This document shows, piece by piece, positions 11,496 through 30,312 of a stretch of DNA of 44,709 nucleotides. The first letter of the stretch is position 1; each line of letters starts with the position of its first letter. The notes under the pieces are model-generated. The model saw only the letters and a program-made list of their open reading frames with translations. It ran no database searches and was not told the origin of the DNA. Source of the DNA: a virus; the UHGV virus genome UHGV-0231863; one strand, given 5' to 3'. Made by a program: the position numbers and the translations under genes.

Positions 11496-14041
11496 TCCTG
11501 CACTACACGCGAAACGCTGATGGCGCTTTTGACCGTACAAAACACGTCGGGATGCCGATGGAGTTTGTCGTTAACCGTATCCCGGACGGCGTGCCGGTGC
11601 GCGTCTACCTGGGCGAGATTGGCGATGATACTGATGTCACCGACGACTTCGACGCGCTTAAAGATGAAGACGCTGTGTACCACATTATTGAGGGTGCGGG
11701 TAGCGGGGCGCTCGGTGCGGTTAGTAAGGTGTTTGGTTTTATCCTTAAGCCAATCGCCAAGTTGTTTGGCCTGAACACGGACGCCAACGCCAACTACACG
11801 GCGACTAACAACCAGACAACATCGCCAAATAACAGCCTCACAGACCGCTCAAACAAACCACGCCCTTACGAGCGCTCCTATGACATCTGCGGGACTGTGC
11901 AGACAATCCCTAATGACCTGATGCAGACGTATAAGGCGTTCAACTCCACTGGTGCTTTGCTGGAGTATTCGTACTATGACGCAGGGCGCGGACATCTGCA
12001 TATTGAGGCTGATGGCGTCACAGAGGGCGACACCCTGATAAGCGACATCACAGGTTCATCGGTTGCCGTATATGCGCCGTATACGTCACCGAACAACACC
12101 GCATCTCCGCAACTACAAATCGGCGACGTCATTGACCAGAAACTCTATGTGACATACTCCAACGACGACGTTGACGGTATTGTGCTGAAAGCGCCAAACG
12201 ACATCGGAGCTAACCCAAGCGCCGACGGCACAGCTAAACGTATTTCAAACACTGGCTACATCTATGATCCGTCAGGCGACTCTGCTTTTTCTGAGTTTCT
12301 TAGTGTTGGTGATGTCGCAGTGTTGAGCAATTTCGACGTTAAGGACGTCACTAACCTGAACGGCTCGTTTGAAGTTTTATACGTCGACGACTTTGAGGTT
12401 CGGTTGTACGTCGGGGATATAGGTAACTGGGGCAACCTTAATAACGGAGAGACTTACGCACTTACAGAGCGTTCGGATACGTTTATAGGCCCAAGCAACA
12501 CCTATCACGTATCTCTTACGGACTGGTATTACATGGTGCGCGGAGAGGTTGACCGGGTACTTGCTAACGTTGCCGGGCAGAACGGCCTCTACAAATACGA
12601 CGGAGGCTATAACCGCACCAGTGTAACGGTGGAACTCCAGTACCAGATGATTGATTCTCAGCGTAACCCGTTGAGCGATATTTACACGGTACAGGCCACA
12701 ATTACAGGCAACAATACGGATTACGTCGGTACGTCTATCTACGGGCAATTGCCGACCGCGTCCCGTTTCCGCGCCCGTATGCGTCGTGTAACTAATTTCG
12801 ATAAAGACTACAACGGTACGGTAAGCGACGAGATAACATTCATTAACCTGTATGGGCAGTCTCTGGACACCACTCCACACTACGGCAACAGAACTACCGT
12901 ACATTGCACCCGTAAACAGACGCCGCGTGCCGCCAGCATAGACAACCCGGAACTGCGCATGATTGCAACCGAGATGTGTTACAAATACCTCGGCAATGGG
13001 GTATTCGATACAGTAATGACACCGAACACGCAAGCCGTACAATCTCTAATTCGACTGGCGCGCGACCCCGCAGTAGGCAATCTGGAACTGACAACGGCAA
13101 ACATGGACAAGTTACTTGCTGTGCAGGAAGAAATTGAGTCCTATTTCGGAAGTGAATTAGCAGGGCAATTCTGCTACACGTTCGACGACTATGACACAAC
13201 CATGCAGGACATCGTCCAGACCATAGCGGAAGCCGTTTTCTGTACTGCGTACCGTAAAGGTGCGGATATTATGCTGCGATTCGACCGTCCTGTCGCGGGG
13301 CCTGAAATGGTGTTCACCCACCGCAGCAAAACTACCGGTACCGAGAAATGGACCCGCACGTTCAACGATTCGACAACCTACGATAGCCTGTCGTTCTCAT
13401 ACATCGACCCGGATACTAACGTACAGGAAACGATTTACATCCCGGAAGAACTCGGGGCAAATACAGAGGAATACGAATCGAAGGGCGTACGTAACTATCA
13501 GCAGGCGTATTGGCTGGCGTGGCGTCGCTATCAGCGCAATGCGTTAAGTAAAGTTGTCGTAGAGTTTGAAGCTACCGAAGAAGGTGCGCTCGCTACTCCA
13601 GGCGGTGTAATCAGCGTAGTTAAAGGCTCGCGTATTGCGCCACAGGACGGCTATGTTGCTGCCGTTAATGGGCTTACGCTGGCACTGTCACAGCCGGTTA
13701 CGTTTACTCCGGGTGATGACCACTCCATCATCCTCAAGAAGCGCGATGGCTCTGTACAGAGTATCTCCGTTATCAAAGGAAGCCACGACCGCGAAGTGAT
13801 TATGCTCTCCGCGCCGGAAGAAGCAATCTACACGGGGAATAGCGCACTAAAAACTGAGTTTTCATTCGGCAACGAAGCAAGGCATAATGCTCAGAAGATA
13901 GTTGTTTCTTCAATCGACCCTGGCGACGACCGCACGGTCAAGATTACTGGCTACAACTATGACGACGGATTCTACAAATACGACGGCGTCGCGCCATACG
14001 GCAGCGGTTTCTCCGACGGATTCAGCAATGGTTTTAATTAA
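11486..14041 (+). CDS. tail tip / central fibre protein (gpJ-like)
   Basis: 851-aa protein closing the tail-tip block. Confidence 0.5.
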   Translation: MAIILHYTRNADGAFDRTKHVGMPMEFVVNRIPDGVPVRVYLGEIGDDTDVTDDFDALKDEDAVYHIIEGAGSGALGAVSKVFGFILKPIAKLFGLNTDANANYTATNNQTTSPNNSLTDRSNKPRPYERSYDICGTVQTIPNDLMQTYKAFNSTGALLEYSYYDAGRGHLHIEADGVTEGDTLISDITGSSVAVYAPYTSPNNTASPQLQIGDVIDQKLYVTYSNDDVDGIVLKAPNDIGANPSADGTAKRISNTGYIYDPSGDSAFSEFLSVGDVAVLSNFDVKDVTNLNGSFEVLYVDDFEVRLYVGDIGNWGNLNNGETYALTERSDTFIGPSNTYHVSLTDWYYMVRGEVDRVLANVAGQNGLYKYDGGYNRTSVTVELQYQMIDSQRNPLSDIYTVQATITGNNTDYVGTSIYGQLPTASRFRARMRRVTNFDKDYNGTVSDEITFINLYGQSLDTTPHYGNRTTVHCTRKQTPRAASIDNPELRMIATEMCYKYLGNGVFDTVMTPNTQAVQSLIRLARDPAVGNLELTTANMDKLLAVQEEIESYFGSELAGQFCYTFDDYDTTMQDIVQTIAEAVFCTAYRKGADIMLRFDRPVAGPEMVFTHRSKTTGTEKWTRTFNDSTTYDSLSFSYIDPDTNVQETIYIPEELGANTEEYESKGVRNYQQAYWLAWRRYQRNALSKVVVEFEATEEGALATPGGVISVVKGSRIAPQDGYVAAVNGLTLALSQPVTFTPGDDHSIILKKRDGSVQSISVIKGSHDREVIMLSAPEEAIYTGNSALKTEFSFGNEARHNAQKIVVSSIDPGDDRTVKITGYNYDDGFYKYDGVAPYGSGFSDGFSNGFN

Positions 14042-28166: not shown

Positions 28167-28400
28167 CTAGCGTTGGGGTTTCTTTTGTCTACGCACCGCA
28201 TTAACCCACTCTCCTTCGCTACGGTAAAAACTGCAATCAAGGATATCCTCTATAGAAAATTTAACTATTTTAGTGGGTCCACAAAAGTTATAAGGGAAAA
28301 GTTCTACATAACACCCATCGTCGGTTATATTTGACGCAATCTTGAAATAATATTTAATGCTGCCGTCTTCGCGGAAGCTACAACCCATACGCCCAATCAT
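28167..28400 (-). CDS. hypothetical protein
   Basis: 77-aa ORF between AlpA-like gene and primase. Confidence 0.4.
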   Translation of the reverse strand: MIGRMGCSFREDGSIKYYFKIASNITDDGCYVELFPYNFCGPTKIVKFSIEDILDCSFYRSEGEWVNAVRRQKKPQR

Positions 28401-28579
28401 TTCACGTTCTCCTTAATCCACTCTTCAACTTTATTACGGTCGAATGTTCCCGGTAAACGGCGACCCATAACCTTAATACAGCAATCCGGGAATTTACCAC
28501 TGCGCAACCAGTTATTAATTGTCTGACGCGTCACCCCGATACGCTCGGCTACTTCATTCTGTGTCATGTAATGTTGCAT
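28397..28579 (-). CDS. AlpA/Xis-like winged-helix DNA-binding protein
   Basis: MTQNEVAERIGVTRQTINNWLRSGKFP; AGGAG SD before internal ATG at 28579; first gene of the leftward operon. Confidence 0.6.
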   Translation of the reverse strand: MQHYMTQNEVAERIGVTRQTINNWLRSGKFPDCCIKVMGRRLPGTFDRNKVEEWIKENVK

Positions 28580-28610
28580 TTTTAAATCTCCTGTTTGTTT
28601 GGTGAAGCCA

Positions 28611-28639
28611 AGTATAGGATAGCGGGAATGTAAAAGCAA
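28611..28639 (-). promoter_or_regulatory. promoter TTGCTT-17-TATACT for leftward operon (AlpA-like gene first)
   Basis: Read on minus strand; ~30 nt upstream of the AGGAG SD. Confidence 0.45.
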
Positions 28640-28686
28640 CCAAAACACCACACAAAGTTACTAAGATACAAAAGATGCTACCGGTA

Positions 28687-28715
28687 TTGACTTTTACTTA
28701 AAAATATGGTAAGCT
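28687..28715 (+). promoter_or_regulatory. promoter TTGACT-17-TAAGCT (copy 1 of duplicated cassette) with palindrome AAGCTCAGcCTGAGCTT
   Basis: Plus strand; palindrome 28711-28727 overlaps -10; followed by identical 38-mer shared with 41272-41309. Confidence 0.45.
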
Positions 28716-28718
28716 CAG

Positions 28719-28756
28719 CCTGAGCTTGTGAAGTATGAACAAGCGACCGCGGCGCG
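28719..28756 (+). repeat. 38-nt block identical to 41272-41309 (copy 1)
   Basis: CCTGAGCTTGTGAAGTATGAACAAGCGACCGCGGCGCG; contains hairpin GCTTGT-gaagtatga-ACAAGC and ATG of micro-ORF MNKRPRR. Confidence 0.85.
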
Positions 28757-28901
28757 CGGCGGGCGAAACGAGCACGTGTAGCGTGTGGAGTGAGGCTCGC
28801 TGGCGCGTTTGGGAGGCCCAAAGTCTATTGTAATTCCCGCCTAAATATCTAAGTTACTGATTTGCCGTTGGTTATATCCGCAAGCTCACTCACTCACTCT
28901 T

Positions 28902-28938
28902 GGTGCCTTCGGCACCACGTTCGTTTCGTTTCGCTTGC
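28902..28938 (+). terminator. UUCG-tetraloop hairpin plus U-rich tract
   Basis: GGTGCC-ttcg-GGCACC followed by ACGTTCGTTTCGTTTCGCTT; preceded by (CTCA)x3. Confidence 0.45.
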
Positions 28939-28983
28939 TACCCCATTAAACGAAAGAATCACAACGGCAACGTAACTATTCTC

Positions 28984-29012
28984 TTGCACACACCAACATA
29001 ATAGGATACTAT
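28984..29012 (+). promoter_or_regulatory. promoter TTGCAC-17-TACTAT with operator AATAGgataCTATT (29000-29013)
   Basis: CTTGCACACaccaacataataggaTACTATTCAC then conserved AAACGAGA leader and GGAG SD. Confidence 0.55.
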
Positions 29013-29046
29013 TCACTTATCGAAACGAGACAGAGGAGTGAGGGCT

Positions 29047-29244
29047 ATGTTTAAACGTGGTCAGTTGGTTAAATACTCCGACGATAAACACGGCATAATT
29101 GAATTAAAATCTGCTTTATTTCCAGGAAAGTACGTAGTTACCGTGCAAAATGTGAGAGGAGTAAATTCACAAATATACGTAGCGGAGGAGAACTTAAAAC
29201 TCATCGGCAACAATTTTAAATTTAAAGGGGGGAGGGTGAAGTGA
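29047..29244 (+). CDS. hypothetical early protein
   Basis: ATG with GGAG SD downstream of conserved promoter cassette; stop overlaps next start. Confidence 0.45.
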   Translation: MFKRGQLVKYSDDKHGIIELKSALFPGKYVVTVQNVRGVNSQIYVAEENLKLIGNNFKFKGGRVK

Positions 29245-29444
29245 TGGAAGAATTATTTGAAGAACTGAAACATCATGATTTCGAGGAAATATATTTCGTA
29301 GCTGAACGCTACGAGGTGCATCTGGCGGACGGTATAACGGTTATTACATCTACCAGCGAGCGAATGTTAAATAGCTTACGAGCAATACGAACGGCATCGA
29401 ATCATGATGCTTGTGCCGACGACGCTGAGGGAGGTTGCCGTTAA
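29244..29444 (+). CDS. hypothetical early protein
   Basis: Acidic 66-aa ORF, TGATG / TAATG coupling to neighbours. Confidence 0.45.
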   Translation: MEELFEELKHHDFEEIYFVAERYEVHLADGITVITSTSERMLNSLRAIRTASNHDACADDAEGGCR

Positions 29445-29623
29445 TGCGAATCCGTATAACTGACCGCAGGCTTATCCGTATAACTGACCGCAGGCTTATA
29501 GATTTCGGTATCTCGGTAGGTGATGTTTTTCCGGCGTTCAGAATCAACCATTATGGTTTTATGATTGAGTACAAAGGGTCGTTATTGTTCGTGTATCGGG
29601 ATGAATGTGAGGTTCTGGTATGA
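29444..29623 (+). CDS. hypothetical early protein containing tandem IRITDRRL repeat
   Basis: 59-aa ORF; includes the perfect 24-bp tandem duplication. Confidence 0.4.
   Translation: MRIRITDRRLIRITDRRLIDFGISVGDVFPAFRINHYGFMIEYKGSLLFVYRDECEVLV
29450..29497 (+). repeat. perfect 24-bp tandem duplication (2 copies)
   Basis: ATCCGTATAACTGACCGCAGGCTT repeated head-to-tail; encodes IRITDRRL twice in frame. Confidence 0.9.
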
Positions 29624-29775
29624 GAGAAGCATTTGAACGGTGGGCTGTGGTCGAGGGTCTGCCGGTTAACAAGGGTTCAAAGAAAGAGTACCTGAACGTT
29701 AAGACGCGTCTCGCGTGGCGGGCGTGGAAAGCTGGTGTGCAATCCTTGATTGAAAGAGGTGTGAGGTATGGGTGA
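29620..29775 (+). CDS. hypothetical early protein
   Basis: 51-codon ORF read by eye, ATGA-type overlaps at both ends. Confidence 0.35.
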   Translation: MREAFERWAVVEGLPVNKGSKKEYLNVKTRLAWRAWKAGVQSLIERGVRYG

Positions 29776-29968
29776 GTGGATTAAGTGTAGTGAGATGCTG
29801 CCGGGTAATGGGTATACGGATAAAGAGTTCCTGGTGTATGAAACGTTAAATAACGCAGTTCAGCACGATTATTACATAGTTCCTGATGACGGGAGAAAGC
29901 CTTTCTGGAATCACTACGATAATTACGTGACGCACTGGATGCCGTTACCCGAGCCGCCAGAAGTGTGA
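29768..29968 (+). CDS. DUF551-like small phage protein
   Basis: C-terminal THWMPLPEPP motif. Confidence 0.5.
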   Translation: MGEWIKCSEMLPGNGYTDKEFLVYETLNNAVQHDYYIVPDDGRKPFWNHYDNYVTHWMPLPEPPEV

Positions 29969-30035
29969 TGTTCAATAGTTTGGGATTTTACTGAGTGACT
30001 TACGCTGCTACACAGCAGCGTACAACTTTAACTTA

Positions 30036-30059
30036 GTGTCGTCAAAAGGCGACACTTTC
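30036..30059 (+). terminator. terminator-like hairpin
   Basis: GTGTCG-tcaaaagg-CGACAC + TTT; preceded by 9-bp-arm inverted repeat TACGCTGCT-acac-AGCAGCGTA (~30001-30022). Confidence 0.4.
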
Positions 30060-30102
30060 ATCAAACGCAACAATCGAAGCGACTATTGCAGGAGATGCAA
30101 CA

Positions 30103-30276
30103 ATGATTACTAAAGAACAGGCTGAACGACTAATCACGTTAATCGACACGATGGTTGATGCGAAAACCGATTTAGCAACGGCGACAGAGGAATCCGCTAC
30201 CTGGTCGCTTGAAGAAAGAGAGGCAGAAGCGGAAAGGGAGTTACTGGCGTTCATCGACTCTATAACACACCAATAA
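30103..30276 (+). CDS. hypothetical early protein (approximate coordinates)
   Basis: 57-codon ORF with AGGAG SD; opposite-strand track ORF 30042..30254 is low-complexity and judged spurious. Confidence 0.4.
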   Translation: MITKEQAERLITLIDTMVDAKTDLATATEESATWSLEEREAEAERELLAFIDSITHQ

Positions 30277-30283
30277 AATTTAC

Positions 30284-30312
30284 TTGCACACTAAGATAGA
30301 ATAGGCTACTAT
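30284..30312 (+). promoter_or_regulatory. promoter TTGCAC-17-TACTAT with operator AATAGgctaCTATT (30300-30313)
   Basis: CTTGCACACtaagatagaataggcTACTATTCAT then AAACGAGAGGAGAG leader. Confidence 0.55.

What the first reader, a model, noticed from the sequence alone, without database searches (positions are those of the whole stretch)
29450..29497. Perfect 24-bp in-frame tandem duplication inside a small early gene
ATCCGTATAACTGACCGCAGGCTT occurs twice head-to-tail with no mismatch, duplicating the peptide IRITDRRL. Zero divergence implies a very recent duplication or a contingency locus whose copy number may vary between isolates.
Basis: seen in the sequence. Interest (0 to 1): 0.4.

Follow-up and report, generated by a model that had tools for sequence, protein, structure and literature searches.

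The report
Variable 24-bp repeat in phage gene
A small gene of an E. coli phage (genus Kagunavirus) starts with a 24-base unit that is present once, twice or three times in different isolates, which is an ordinary in-frame variable repeat that adds an eight-residue piece to the front of a tiny barrel-shaped protein of unknown function.

Summary
Window 29450-29497 holds two perfect head-to-tail copies of ATCCGTATAACTGACCGCAGGCTT, in frame, at codons 3-18 of a 59-aa ORF (29444-29623, + strand).

The window is a Kagunavirus, a K1G/K1ind-like E. coli siphophage. Related genomes carry 1 copy (51 aa, the family norm), 2 copies (59 aa) or 3 copies (67 aa: K1G, K1H, UTI-CM001). All three states occur on 700 bp of identical flanks, so copy number changes faster than point substitution.

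Two parts of the interpretation fail:
- **Not very recent.** The two-copy allele is on hundreds of public contigs, on flanks up to 6% diverged, and has derived forms whose second copy carries 1-2 substitutions.
- **Not a classical contingency locus.** No allele shifts the frame, and only 1-3 copies are seen.

AlphaFold models give an SH3-like small beta-barrel built from the copy nearest the core. The extra copy is a lower-confidence N-terminal tail, at a point where family members differ in length anyway.

The most likely cause is replication slippage or unequal recombination producing a tolerated, probably near-neutral coding VNTR. The gene's function is unknown (PHROG 30395), and "FeoA-like" is only a fold resemblance. 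Interest is low to modest.

The parts
29450..29473 (+). Repeat copy 1 (distal, N-terminal), encoding IRITDRRL, residues 3-10
   Evidence: In the AlphaFold model, residues 1-9 have no secondary structure and the first ten-residue block has mean pLDDT 67.
29474..29497 (+). Repeat copy 2 (proximal), encoding IRITDRRL, residues 11-18. It supplies strand beta-1 and the start of the short helix of the barrel.
   Evidence: The 59-aa model has strand 10-13 and helix 16-21. These equal strand 2-5 and helix 8-13 of the 51-aa one-copy protein.
29498..29499 (+). 'AT' after the array, matching the first two bases of the unit. This 2-bp microhomology sits at the duplication junction.
   Evidence: TRF extends the array to 29499. 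One-copy relatives read ...GCGA ATCCG...GGCTT ATAGA....
29444..29623 (+). The host gene, 59 aa, a small SH3-like beta-barrel protein (PHROG 30395, unknown function). Its ATG overlaps the upstream stop (TAATG), and its TGA overlaps the downstream ATG (ATGA).
   Evidence: ORF list. PHROG 30395 hit at E 8e-38. AlphaFold pLDDT 88.7 and 96.0. Homologues found.
29429..29433 (+). GGAGG, the Shine-Dalgarno-like sequence 10 nt upstream of the ATG. It is unchanged by repeat copy number.
   Evidence: Sequence. It is conserved in relatives.
29241..29444 (+). Upstream small ORF (66-67 aa) of the same operon, translationally coupled to the repeat gene
   Evidence: It is annotated as a hypothetical protein in fTaEco03.
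29620..29775 (+). Downstream small ORF (51 aa; Phage_phiTE_015 family, PF26207, in relatives), translationally coupled
   Evidence: Precomputed Pfam hits on homologous contigs. PHROG 15836.

Best explanation
This is a coding minisatellite (VNTR) at the 5' end of a small Kagunavirus gene. The ancestral gene has one copy of the 24-bp unit and encodes 51 aa.

In the K1G/K1ind-like lineage the unit was duplicated head-to-tail, probably by replication slippage or illegitimate recombination at a 2-bp 'AT' microhomology. Once two perfect 24-bp copies existed, slipped-strand mispairing or unequal homologous recombination repeatedly added and removed whole units. That produced the 1-, 2- and 3-copy alleles.

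Every change is a multiple of three bases. The first 30 nt of the coding sequence are the same in all alleles, so neither reading frame nor translation initiation is affected.

The protein is an SH3-like small beta-barrel. The copy adjacent to the core provides strand beta-1 and the short helix. Extra copies stick out as an 8- or 16-residue flexible, arginine-rich N-terminal tail, at a position where the family tolerates length differences. The variation is therefore tolerated and probably nearly neutral.

**Shown:** the repeat, its frame, the copy-number polymorphism, and its speed relative to flanking substitutions.

**Predicted, not shown:** the fold and which copy it uses (AlphaFold models).

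**Inferred:** the slippage or recombination mechanism, near-neutrality, and early expression.
For: - **Repeat and frame:**
- **Copy number in isolates:**
  - K1G and K1H have three perfect copies.
  - UTI-CM001 has three copies in the pattern I, V, V (Ile, Val, Val as the first residue of each copy).
  - K1ind2, K1ind3, fTaEco01 and UTI89UKE1 have two copies.
  - fTaEco03, fKuEco01 and the window have two perfect copies.
  - 18 further GenBank isolates have one copy.
- **Copy number in metagenomes:** only 1 or 2 copies were found.
- **Ancestral state:** in the flank tree all basal clades are one-copy. Multi-copy alleles are confined to one tight clade, where 1, 2 and 3 copies are intermixed. 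The PHROG 30395 profile is 51 positions long, the one-copy length.
- **Speed:** with 200 bp upstream and 500 bp downstream 100% identical, L026 has 1 copy, L043 has 2 and K1G has 3. Other identical-flank groups mix I/II and II/IV states.
- **Age:** the second copy carries A>G, then C>A, in some alleles. Perfect two-copy arrays sit on flanks up to 6.25% diverged.
- **Selection acts on the peptide, not the DNA:**
  - One-copy alleles use ATC/ATT/ATA and CGT/CGA synonymously for the same IRI peptide.
  - About 50%-identical homologues keep MRIRITD with four synonymous changes.
- **Structure:** the 59-aa and 51-aa models have identical elements offset by 8 residues, and the distal copy has low confidence.
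- **Length tolerance:** the segment between MRIRITD and L..FG.SVGD ranges from 2 to about 13 residues across the family.
Against: - No reads or population data were available, so the mutation rate and within-lysate heterogeneity are unmeasured.
- Phage mosaicism could move alleles between backgrounds. Two-copy alleles do occur with the LAFSSN C-terminal haplotype that is otherwise one-copy (P0026, P0057). Some apparent recurrence may therefore be recombination rather than new slippage events.
- Near-neutrality is an assumption. The two-copy allele is about as common as the one-copy allele in public data, which could also reflect a benefit.
- The AlphaFold models rest on shallow alignments of 16-18 sequences.
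- An alternative register cannot be excluded. The distal copy could act as beta-1 with the proximal copy as a 10-residue linker, mimicking the 13-residue linker of distant homologues.
Confidence: 0.8

Rival explanations
1. Adaptive tuning knob. Copy number of the IRITDRRL peptide modulates the activity or partner binding of the small barrel protein, for example a host take-over or anti-defence function. Selection keeps the locus variable, making it a contingency-like locus that changes protein length rather than switching it on and off.
For: - Copy number changes faster than flanking substitutions.
- Both 1- and 2-copy alleles are common.
- Multi-copy alleles cluster in the endosialidase-carrying K1-phage clade.
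- The tail is arginine-rich and exposed in the model.
Against: - Only three states are seen and none exceeds 3 copies.
- There is no frame switching.
- The extra copy is predicted to be flexible and outside the fold.
- The function of the protein is unknown.
- The clustering is explained by common descent.
- No phenotype data exist.
Confidence: 0.12
2. The repeat is a DNA-level element embedded in a gene, such as iterons of a replication origin or operator sites for a regulator, as in the lambda ori inside gene O. The peptide duplication would be a by-product.
For: - Direct repeats of about 20-24 bp inside a gene near the replication module recall lambda ori.
- The helicase-primase and an HTH protein lie about 1 kb away on the other strand.
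Against: - Most relatives have a single copy, and some, such as K1ind1, lack a detectable gene.
- No further copy or 12-mer core exists anywhere in the window.
- There is no adjacent AT-rich tract; GC is 0.41-0.51.
- No inverted repeat or strong structure was found.
- The first codons vary synonymously while the peptide is kept, which points to protein-level selection.
Confidence: 0.03
3. A sequencing or assembly artefact, or a one-off very recent duplication private to this genome.
For: Perfect identity of the two copies.
Against: - The identical allele is in at least 24 independent contigs.
- Two-copy alleles are in seven separately sequenced isolates and many metagenomes.
- A 48-bp array is shorter than the k-mers of several of these assemblies (contig names k111_ and k141_) and shorter than normal reads.
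Confidence: 0.02

Closest known systems
Coding VNTRs / minisatellites in microbial genes (the class used for MLVA typing; in-frame repeat-number variation by slipped-strand mispairing or unequal recombination)
   Same: - Head-to-tail units longer than 6 bp.
- Unit length a multiple of 3.
- Copy number polymorphic between isolates and changing faster than point mutations.
- The protein stays in frame.
   Different: - Very short array, 1-3 copies.
- It lies at the extreme N-terminus of a 51-aa phage protein rather than in a large surface protein.
- The unit duplicates a structural element (beta-1 and the helix start) of a single-domain fold, of which only one copy can be used.
Contingency loci (phase-variable simple-sequence repeats, as described by Moxon and colleagues; recalled from general knowledge)
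   Same: A repeat tract with an elevated mutation rate that generates heritable diversity.
   Different: - Contingency loci use 1-7-nt units in long tracts.
- Their length changes shift the frame or the promoter spacing and so switch a gene on or off.
- Here the 24-nt unit never changes the frame or the initiation region.
FeoA / DtxR-C-terminal SH3-like domains, and other small beta-barrels such as Hfq/Sm and SH3
   Same: - The predicted fold is a five-strand small barrel with a short helix after beta-1.
- The best Foldseek hit for the 59-aa model is PA4359, a FeoA protein (2h3j), with probability 0.98.
- GenBank annotators reached 'FeoA-like' by HHpred.
   Different: - No Pfam FeoA hit even at E<=1.
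- A profile search of 1.84 billion proteins finds only about 12 small proteins of similar length at E below 1e-4, and no larger family emerges. Those proteins were not scanned against Pfam, so the absence of FeoA relatives is inferred from size and number alone.
- All Foldseek E-values are at or above 0.04, and Hfq, SH3 and integrase C-terminal domains score equally well.
- There is no feoB context.
Lambda-type origin iterons inside a coding sequence
   Same: Direct repeats of about 20 bp inside a phage gene near replication genes.
   Different: - Copy number is 1 in most relatives.
- No AT-rich flank.
- No dispersed copies.
- Synonymous variation shows the constraint is on the peptide.

Membership tests
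Coding VNTR / minisatellite | Head-to-tail repeats of a unit longer than 6 bp | tested here: met
   Period 24, 2.1 copies, 100% identity.
Coding VNTR / minisatellite | Copy number differs between related genomes | tested here: met
   1, 2 or 3 copies in 28 GenBank isolates, the first 64 fetched loci and nine further metagenome loci.
Coding VNTR / minisatellite | Unit is a multiple of 3 and lies in a real ORF, so all alleles stay in frame | tested here: met
   Alleles of 51, 59 and 67 aa all end at the same stop. The ORF is conserved and gives a confident fold.
Coding VNTR / minisatellite | Copy-number change is faster than point substitution in the flanks | tested here: met
   States I, II and III occur on 700 bp of identical flanks. 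Recombination could contribute.
Contingency locus (phase-variable SSR) | Length change switches expression on or off, by frameshift or promoter spacing | tested here: not met
   The unit is 8 codons. The ribosome-binding site, the ATG and the first 30 coding nucleotides are identical in all alleles.
Contingency locus (phase-variable SSR) | Long tract of short (1-7 nt) units | tested here: not met
   24-nt unit with 1-3 copies. No allele with 4 or 5 copies was found in the 15-billion-protein collection or in the metagenome scan.
Contingency locus (phase-variable SSR) | Heterogeneity within a clonal population | not testable with these tools
   No reads are available.
FeoA (Pfam PF04023) | Sequence match to the family profile above threshold | tested here: not met
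   hmmscan against Pfam returned 0 families at E<=1. The PDB profile search gave only E of about 1, to designed DPBB proteins.
FeoA (Pfam PF04023) | SH3-like barrel fold | tested here: inconclusive
   The fold is SH3-like, and the top hit for the 59-aa model is FeoA PA4359 at E 0.04. Hfq, SH3 and ScaR score similarly.
FeoA (Pfam PF04023) | Genomic association with feoB | tested here: not met
   The neighbours are small phage genes, DUF551 and Phage_phiTE_015.
Iteron-type replication origin | Several conserved binding repeats with an adjacent AT-rich region | tested here: not met
   One copy in most relatives. GC is 0.41-0.51 around the array. No other copies exist.
PHROG 30395 (phage protein family, unknown function) | Profile match over full length | tested here: met
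   E 7.7e-38, with residues 11-59 matching profile positions 3-51 of 51. The one-copy protein matches positions 1-51.

The most novel reading that the evidence does not exclude
The 8-residue module is a selected 'length dial' on a small SH3/Hfq-like early protein. Either repeat copy could serve as strand beta-1, so 2- and 3-copy proteins could adopt alternative registers or strand-swapped oligomers. The phage lineage would then use rapid gain and loss of the module to retune an interaction with a host target or defence system.
Probability: 0.08. Interest if true: 0.55.

Novelty: new member of a known kind. Interest (0 to 1): 0.22.

Why it matters
- It gives a simple, fast-evolving length marker (51, 59 or 67 aa; 24-bp steps) for telling closely related therapeutic K1-specific Kagunavirus isolates apart.
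- It is a caution for annotation and assembly, because three-copy arrays can collapse in short-k assemblies.
- It is a small, clean example of how a duplicated structural element at a protein terminus is tolerated.
- It does not open a new biological question unless the copy number proves to have a phenotype.

Tried and rejected
- **DNA-site or iteron reading, rejected.** I searched the window for further copies with up to 3 mismatches, and for a 12-mer core with 1 mismatch. I also ran a repeat scan of 28300-30300 and a composition profile. Nothing supports it.
- **RNA structure, rejected.** The array on either strand, and the 121-nt initiation region, fold no better than shuffles, with z-scores of +1.2, +1.0 and +0.1.
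- **Promoter or terminator, rejected.** No site lies at the repeat, and counts are near the shuffle expectation.
- **FeoA membership, not confirmed.**
  - Pfam gave nothing.
  - The PDB profile search gave only E of about 1, to a GD-box motif in designed DPBB proteins.
  - The representative-library profile search returned only about 12 small proteins of similar length at E below 1e-4.
- **Longer arrays, none found.**
  - Exact look-ups of constructed 4- and 5-copy proteins were negative.
  - The constructed perfect three-copy protein (the K1G type) was also absent from that collection. K1G and K1H do not annotate this ORF, so the protein look-up under-reports arrays of three or more copies.
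  - The metagenome scan found none either.
- **Hosts.** There was no match in E. coli complete genomes or in 185,579 species genomes, so there is no sign of a prophage or host origin.
- **Literature.** Nothing was found on this locus, with 0 papers for Kagunavirus plus 'tandem repeat' or for the fTaEco/fKuEco phages. One search returned general K1-phage papers only, judged from titles and abstracts; none was opened.
- **Other scans.** tRNA and Rfam scans of the window were empty.

Full report
**1. Observation**

Window 29450-29497 contains ATCCGTATAACTGACCGCAGGCTT twice, head to tail, without a mismatch. Tandem Repeats Finder gives period 24, 2.1 copies, 100% matches and score 100, the strongest array in the window. 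No further copy with up to 3 mismatches exists on either strand, and none of 100 shuffles gave two matches. My own arithmetic puts the chance expectation for a perfect 24-bp tandem duplication in 44.7 kb at about 1.6e-10.

The array lies in the + strand ORF 29444-29623. A GGAGG lies 10 nt before the ATG. The ATG overlaps the stop of the upstream ORF (TAATG), and the stop overlaps the ATG of the downstream ORF (ATGA). The product is MR-IRITDRRL-IRITDRRL-IDFGISVGDVFPAFRINHYGFMIEYKGSLLFVYRDECEVLV, 59 aa.

**2. What the window is**

The 1-kb region around the repeat matches 143 phage records, mostly Escherichia and Salmonella Guernseyvirinae. The best hits, at 99%, are Escherichia phages K1ind2, K1ind3 and MirsaeidiM_Esher4, of the genus Kagunavirus. 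It matches no complete E. coli genome.

In the well-annotated relative vB_EcoS_fTaEco03, the gene is the third of a rightward operon of small genes. That operon starts after a divergent intergenic region. On the other side of the region lie an HTH protein and the replicative helicase-primase. 'Early gene' is therefore a reasonable guess from position and has not been shown.

**3. Copy number in relatives**

Among GenBank isolates:

| Copies | Protein length | Isolates |
|---|---|---|
| 3 | 67 aa | K1G, K1H (three perfect copies); UTI-CM001 (copies 2 and 3 begin GTC, giving I, V, V) |
| 2 | 59 aa | K1ind2, K1ind3, MirsaeidiM_Esher4, fTaEco01, fKuEco01, fTaEco03, UTI89UKE1 |
| 1 | 51 aa | 18 isolates, including G AB-2017, L AB-2017, NTEC3, SCS92, phiEc3, fEg-Eco19 and JSSK01 |
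| gene not detected | - | K1ind1 |

In the 15-billion-protein collection, the 59-aa forms P0016, P0013 and P0017 are on 126, 93 and 24 contigs. P0017 is identical to the window's protein. The 51-aa forms P0029, P0030 and P0018 are on 119, 62 and 19 contigs.

Among the first 64 loci fetched, the array types were:

| Array type | Loci |
|---|---|
| One-copy with ATC first codon | 24 |
| Further one-copy with ATT or ATA first codon | 4 |
| Two perfect copies (II) | 18 |
| Two copies, second starting GTC (IV) | 11 |
| Two copies, second starting GTA (Iv) | 2 |
| Three perfect copies (III) | 4 |
| Three copies, I, V, V | 1 |

A scan of JGI/ENA metagenome contigs gave five two-copy and four one-copy loci and none longer. 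Constructed 4- and 5-copy proteins are absent from the collection.

One caveat rests on my own knowledge of the Logan assemblies, which use k=31. A 72-bp three-copy array contains repeated 31-mers, whereas a 48-bp array does not. Arrays of three or more copies may therefore be under-represented in those contigs. The constructed perfect three-copy protein was also absent from the collection, although K1G and K1H carry that array. Those two records do not annotate this ORF, so the protein look-up under-reports longer arrays too.

**4. History of the locus**

A neighbour-joining tree was built from 200 bp upstream plus 330 bp downstream, with the array collapsed to one unit. All basal clades are one-copy. 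All multi-copy alleles fall in one tight clade, where 1-, 2- and 3-copy alleles are interleaved.

With 200 bp upstream and 500 bp downstream completely identical, L026 has one copy, L043 two and K1G three. Other identical-flank groups mix I with II, and II with IV. Copy number, and the I/V state of the second copy, therefore change on a timescale shorter than one substitution in about 700 bp. Alternatively, they are shuffled by recombination among co-circulating phages.

The duplication itself is not recent:
- Perfect two-copy arrays sit on flanks that differ by up to 6.25%.
- Derived alleles carry one or two substitutions in copy 2.
- Two-copy arrays also occur with the otherwise one-copy 'LAFSSN' C-terminal haplotype (P0026 and P0057). 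That indicates recombination or independent duplication.

The only junction homology is the dinucleotide AT. This fits an initial illegitimate slippage event. Later changes would be driven by the 24-bp perfect homology. This mechanism is an inference.

**5. Protein or DNA element?**

The constraint is on the peptide:
- One-copy alleles encode IRI with ATC/ATT/ATA and CGT/CGA.
- Homologues of about 50% identity keep MRIRITD with four synonymous differences and then diverge completely.

Nothing indicates a DNA or RNA element:
- No dispersed copies of the unit or its 12-mer core.
- No neighbouring AT-rich tract.
- No meaningful inverted repeats.
- No promoter or terminator signal at the array.
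- No RNA structure beyond shuffles.

The iteron/operator rival is therefore rejected.

**6. The protein**

Pfam finds nothing for this protein, even at E<=1. PHROGs places it in phrog_30395, of unknown function. That profile has 51 positions, the one-copy length, and the window protein matches it from residue 11.

A profile search of 1.84 billion representatives returns about 12 small proteins of similar length at E below 1e-4. Three further hits, near the 1e-3 limit, are short stretches in proteins of 620-3,330 aa.

Across the family, the segment between MRIRITD and the L..FG.SVGD motif varies from 2 to about 13 residues. That is exactly where the repeat adds 8 or 16 residues.

AlphaFold2 gave these models:

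| Protein | pLDDT | pTM | Strands | Helix |
|---|---|---|---|---|
| One-copy, 51 aa | 96.0 | 0.76 | 2-5, 20-26, 30-35, 38-43, 47-50 | 8-13 |
| Window, 59 aa | 88.7 | 0.73 | 10-13, 28-34, 38-43, 46-51, 55-58 | 16-21 |

The window protein has the same elements shifted by 8 residues. Its first ten residues average pLDDT 67. The model thus uses the core-proximal copy and leaves the distal copy as a flexible N-terminal tail.

Foldseek against the PDB gives only weak, generic small-beta-barrel matches. The 59-aa model hits FeoA PA4359 (2h3j, E 0.04, probability 0.98), then SH3 domains, ScaR/SloR C-terminal domains, Hfq and integrase C-terminal domains. The 51-aa model hits Hfq, SH3, ScaR and FeoA at E>=0.18. 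The annotators' 'FeoA-like' label is a fold resemblance and does not establish family membership.

**7. Verdict**

The finding is real. The thing is an ordinary short coding VNTR, not a very recent event and not an on/off contingency locus.

The most likely account is slippage or unequal recombination adding and removing an 8-residue N-terminal module that the small barrel protein tolerates. I put confidence in this at about 0.8. A selected 'tuning' role cannot be excluded, at roughly 0.1, and would need isogenic phages to test.

No publication on this locus was found. It is a new example of a known kind of feature. Its practical use is as a strain-typing marker and as an annotation and assembly caveat.

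Noticed in passing
window 28651-29038: About 390-bp divergent intergenic region between a leftward HTH_17/HTH_3 gene (28397-28651, - strand) and the rightward small-gene operon. It contains terminator-like hairpins (28901-28917 on +, 28727-28711 on -) and a near-palindrome at 28670-28695. It is probably the early regulatory region of the phage.
   Followed up: partly
window 29768-29968: A DUF551 (PF04448) protein, E 1.7e-11, two genes downstream of the repeat gene. fTaEco03 carries a second DUF551 gene in the leftward replication module.
   Followed up: no
L024 1653-1847 and L052 1677-1871 (relatives): Some relatives carry an extra 64-aa gene inserted directly after the repeat gene. Others have different genes upstream (for example L030, L056, L061). 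The small-gene operon is strongly mosaic around this locus.
   Followed up: no
window 29444-29464 versus L013 1501-1521: The N-terminal heptapeptide MRIRITD is invariant even in homologues that are only about 50% identical overall, and it is encoded with synonymous differences. It is the most conserved part of a family whose function is unknown.
   Followed up: partly
window 30049-30104: An imperfect 26-nt direct repeat with 30-nt spacing (73% identity), in the untranslated gap between the DUF551 gene and the next ORF, which starts at 30103.
   Followed up: no
window 12690-12715: The second-best tandem repeat in the window: a 13-bp unit, 2 copies, 92% matches (TACAGGCAACAAT). It was not examined.
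   Followed up: no
whole window: No tRNA genes and no Rfam family at gathering threshold in the 44.7 kb. The closest deposited isolate over the right half is MirsaeidiM_Esher4, at only 95% identity and 77% coverage. This exact phage is therefore not in the 2025 GenBank phage set. Metagenome contig ERZ28588156 scaffold_103 (44,764 bp) is identical around the locus.
   Followed up: partly
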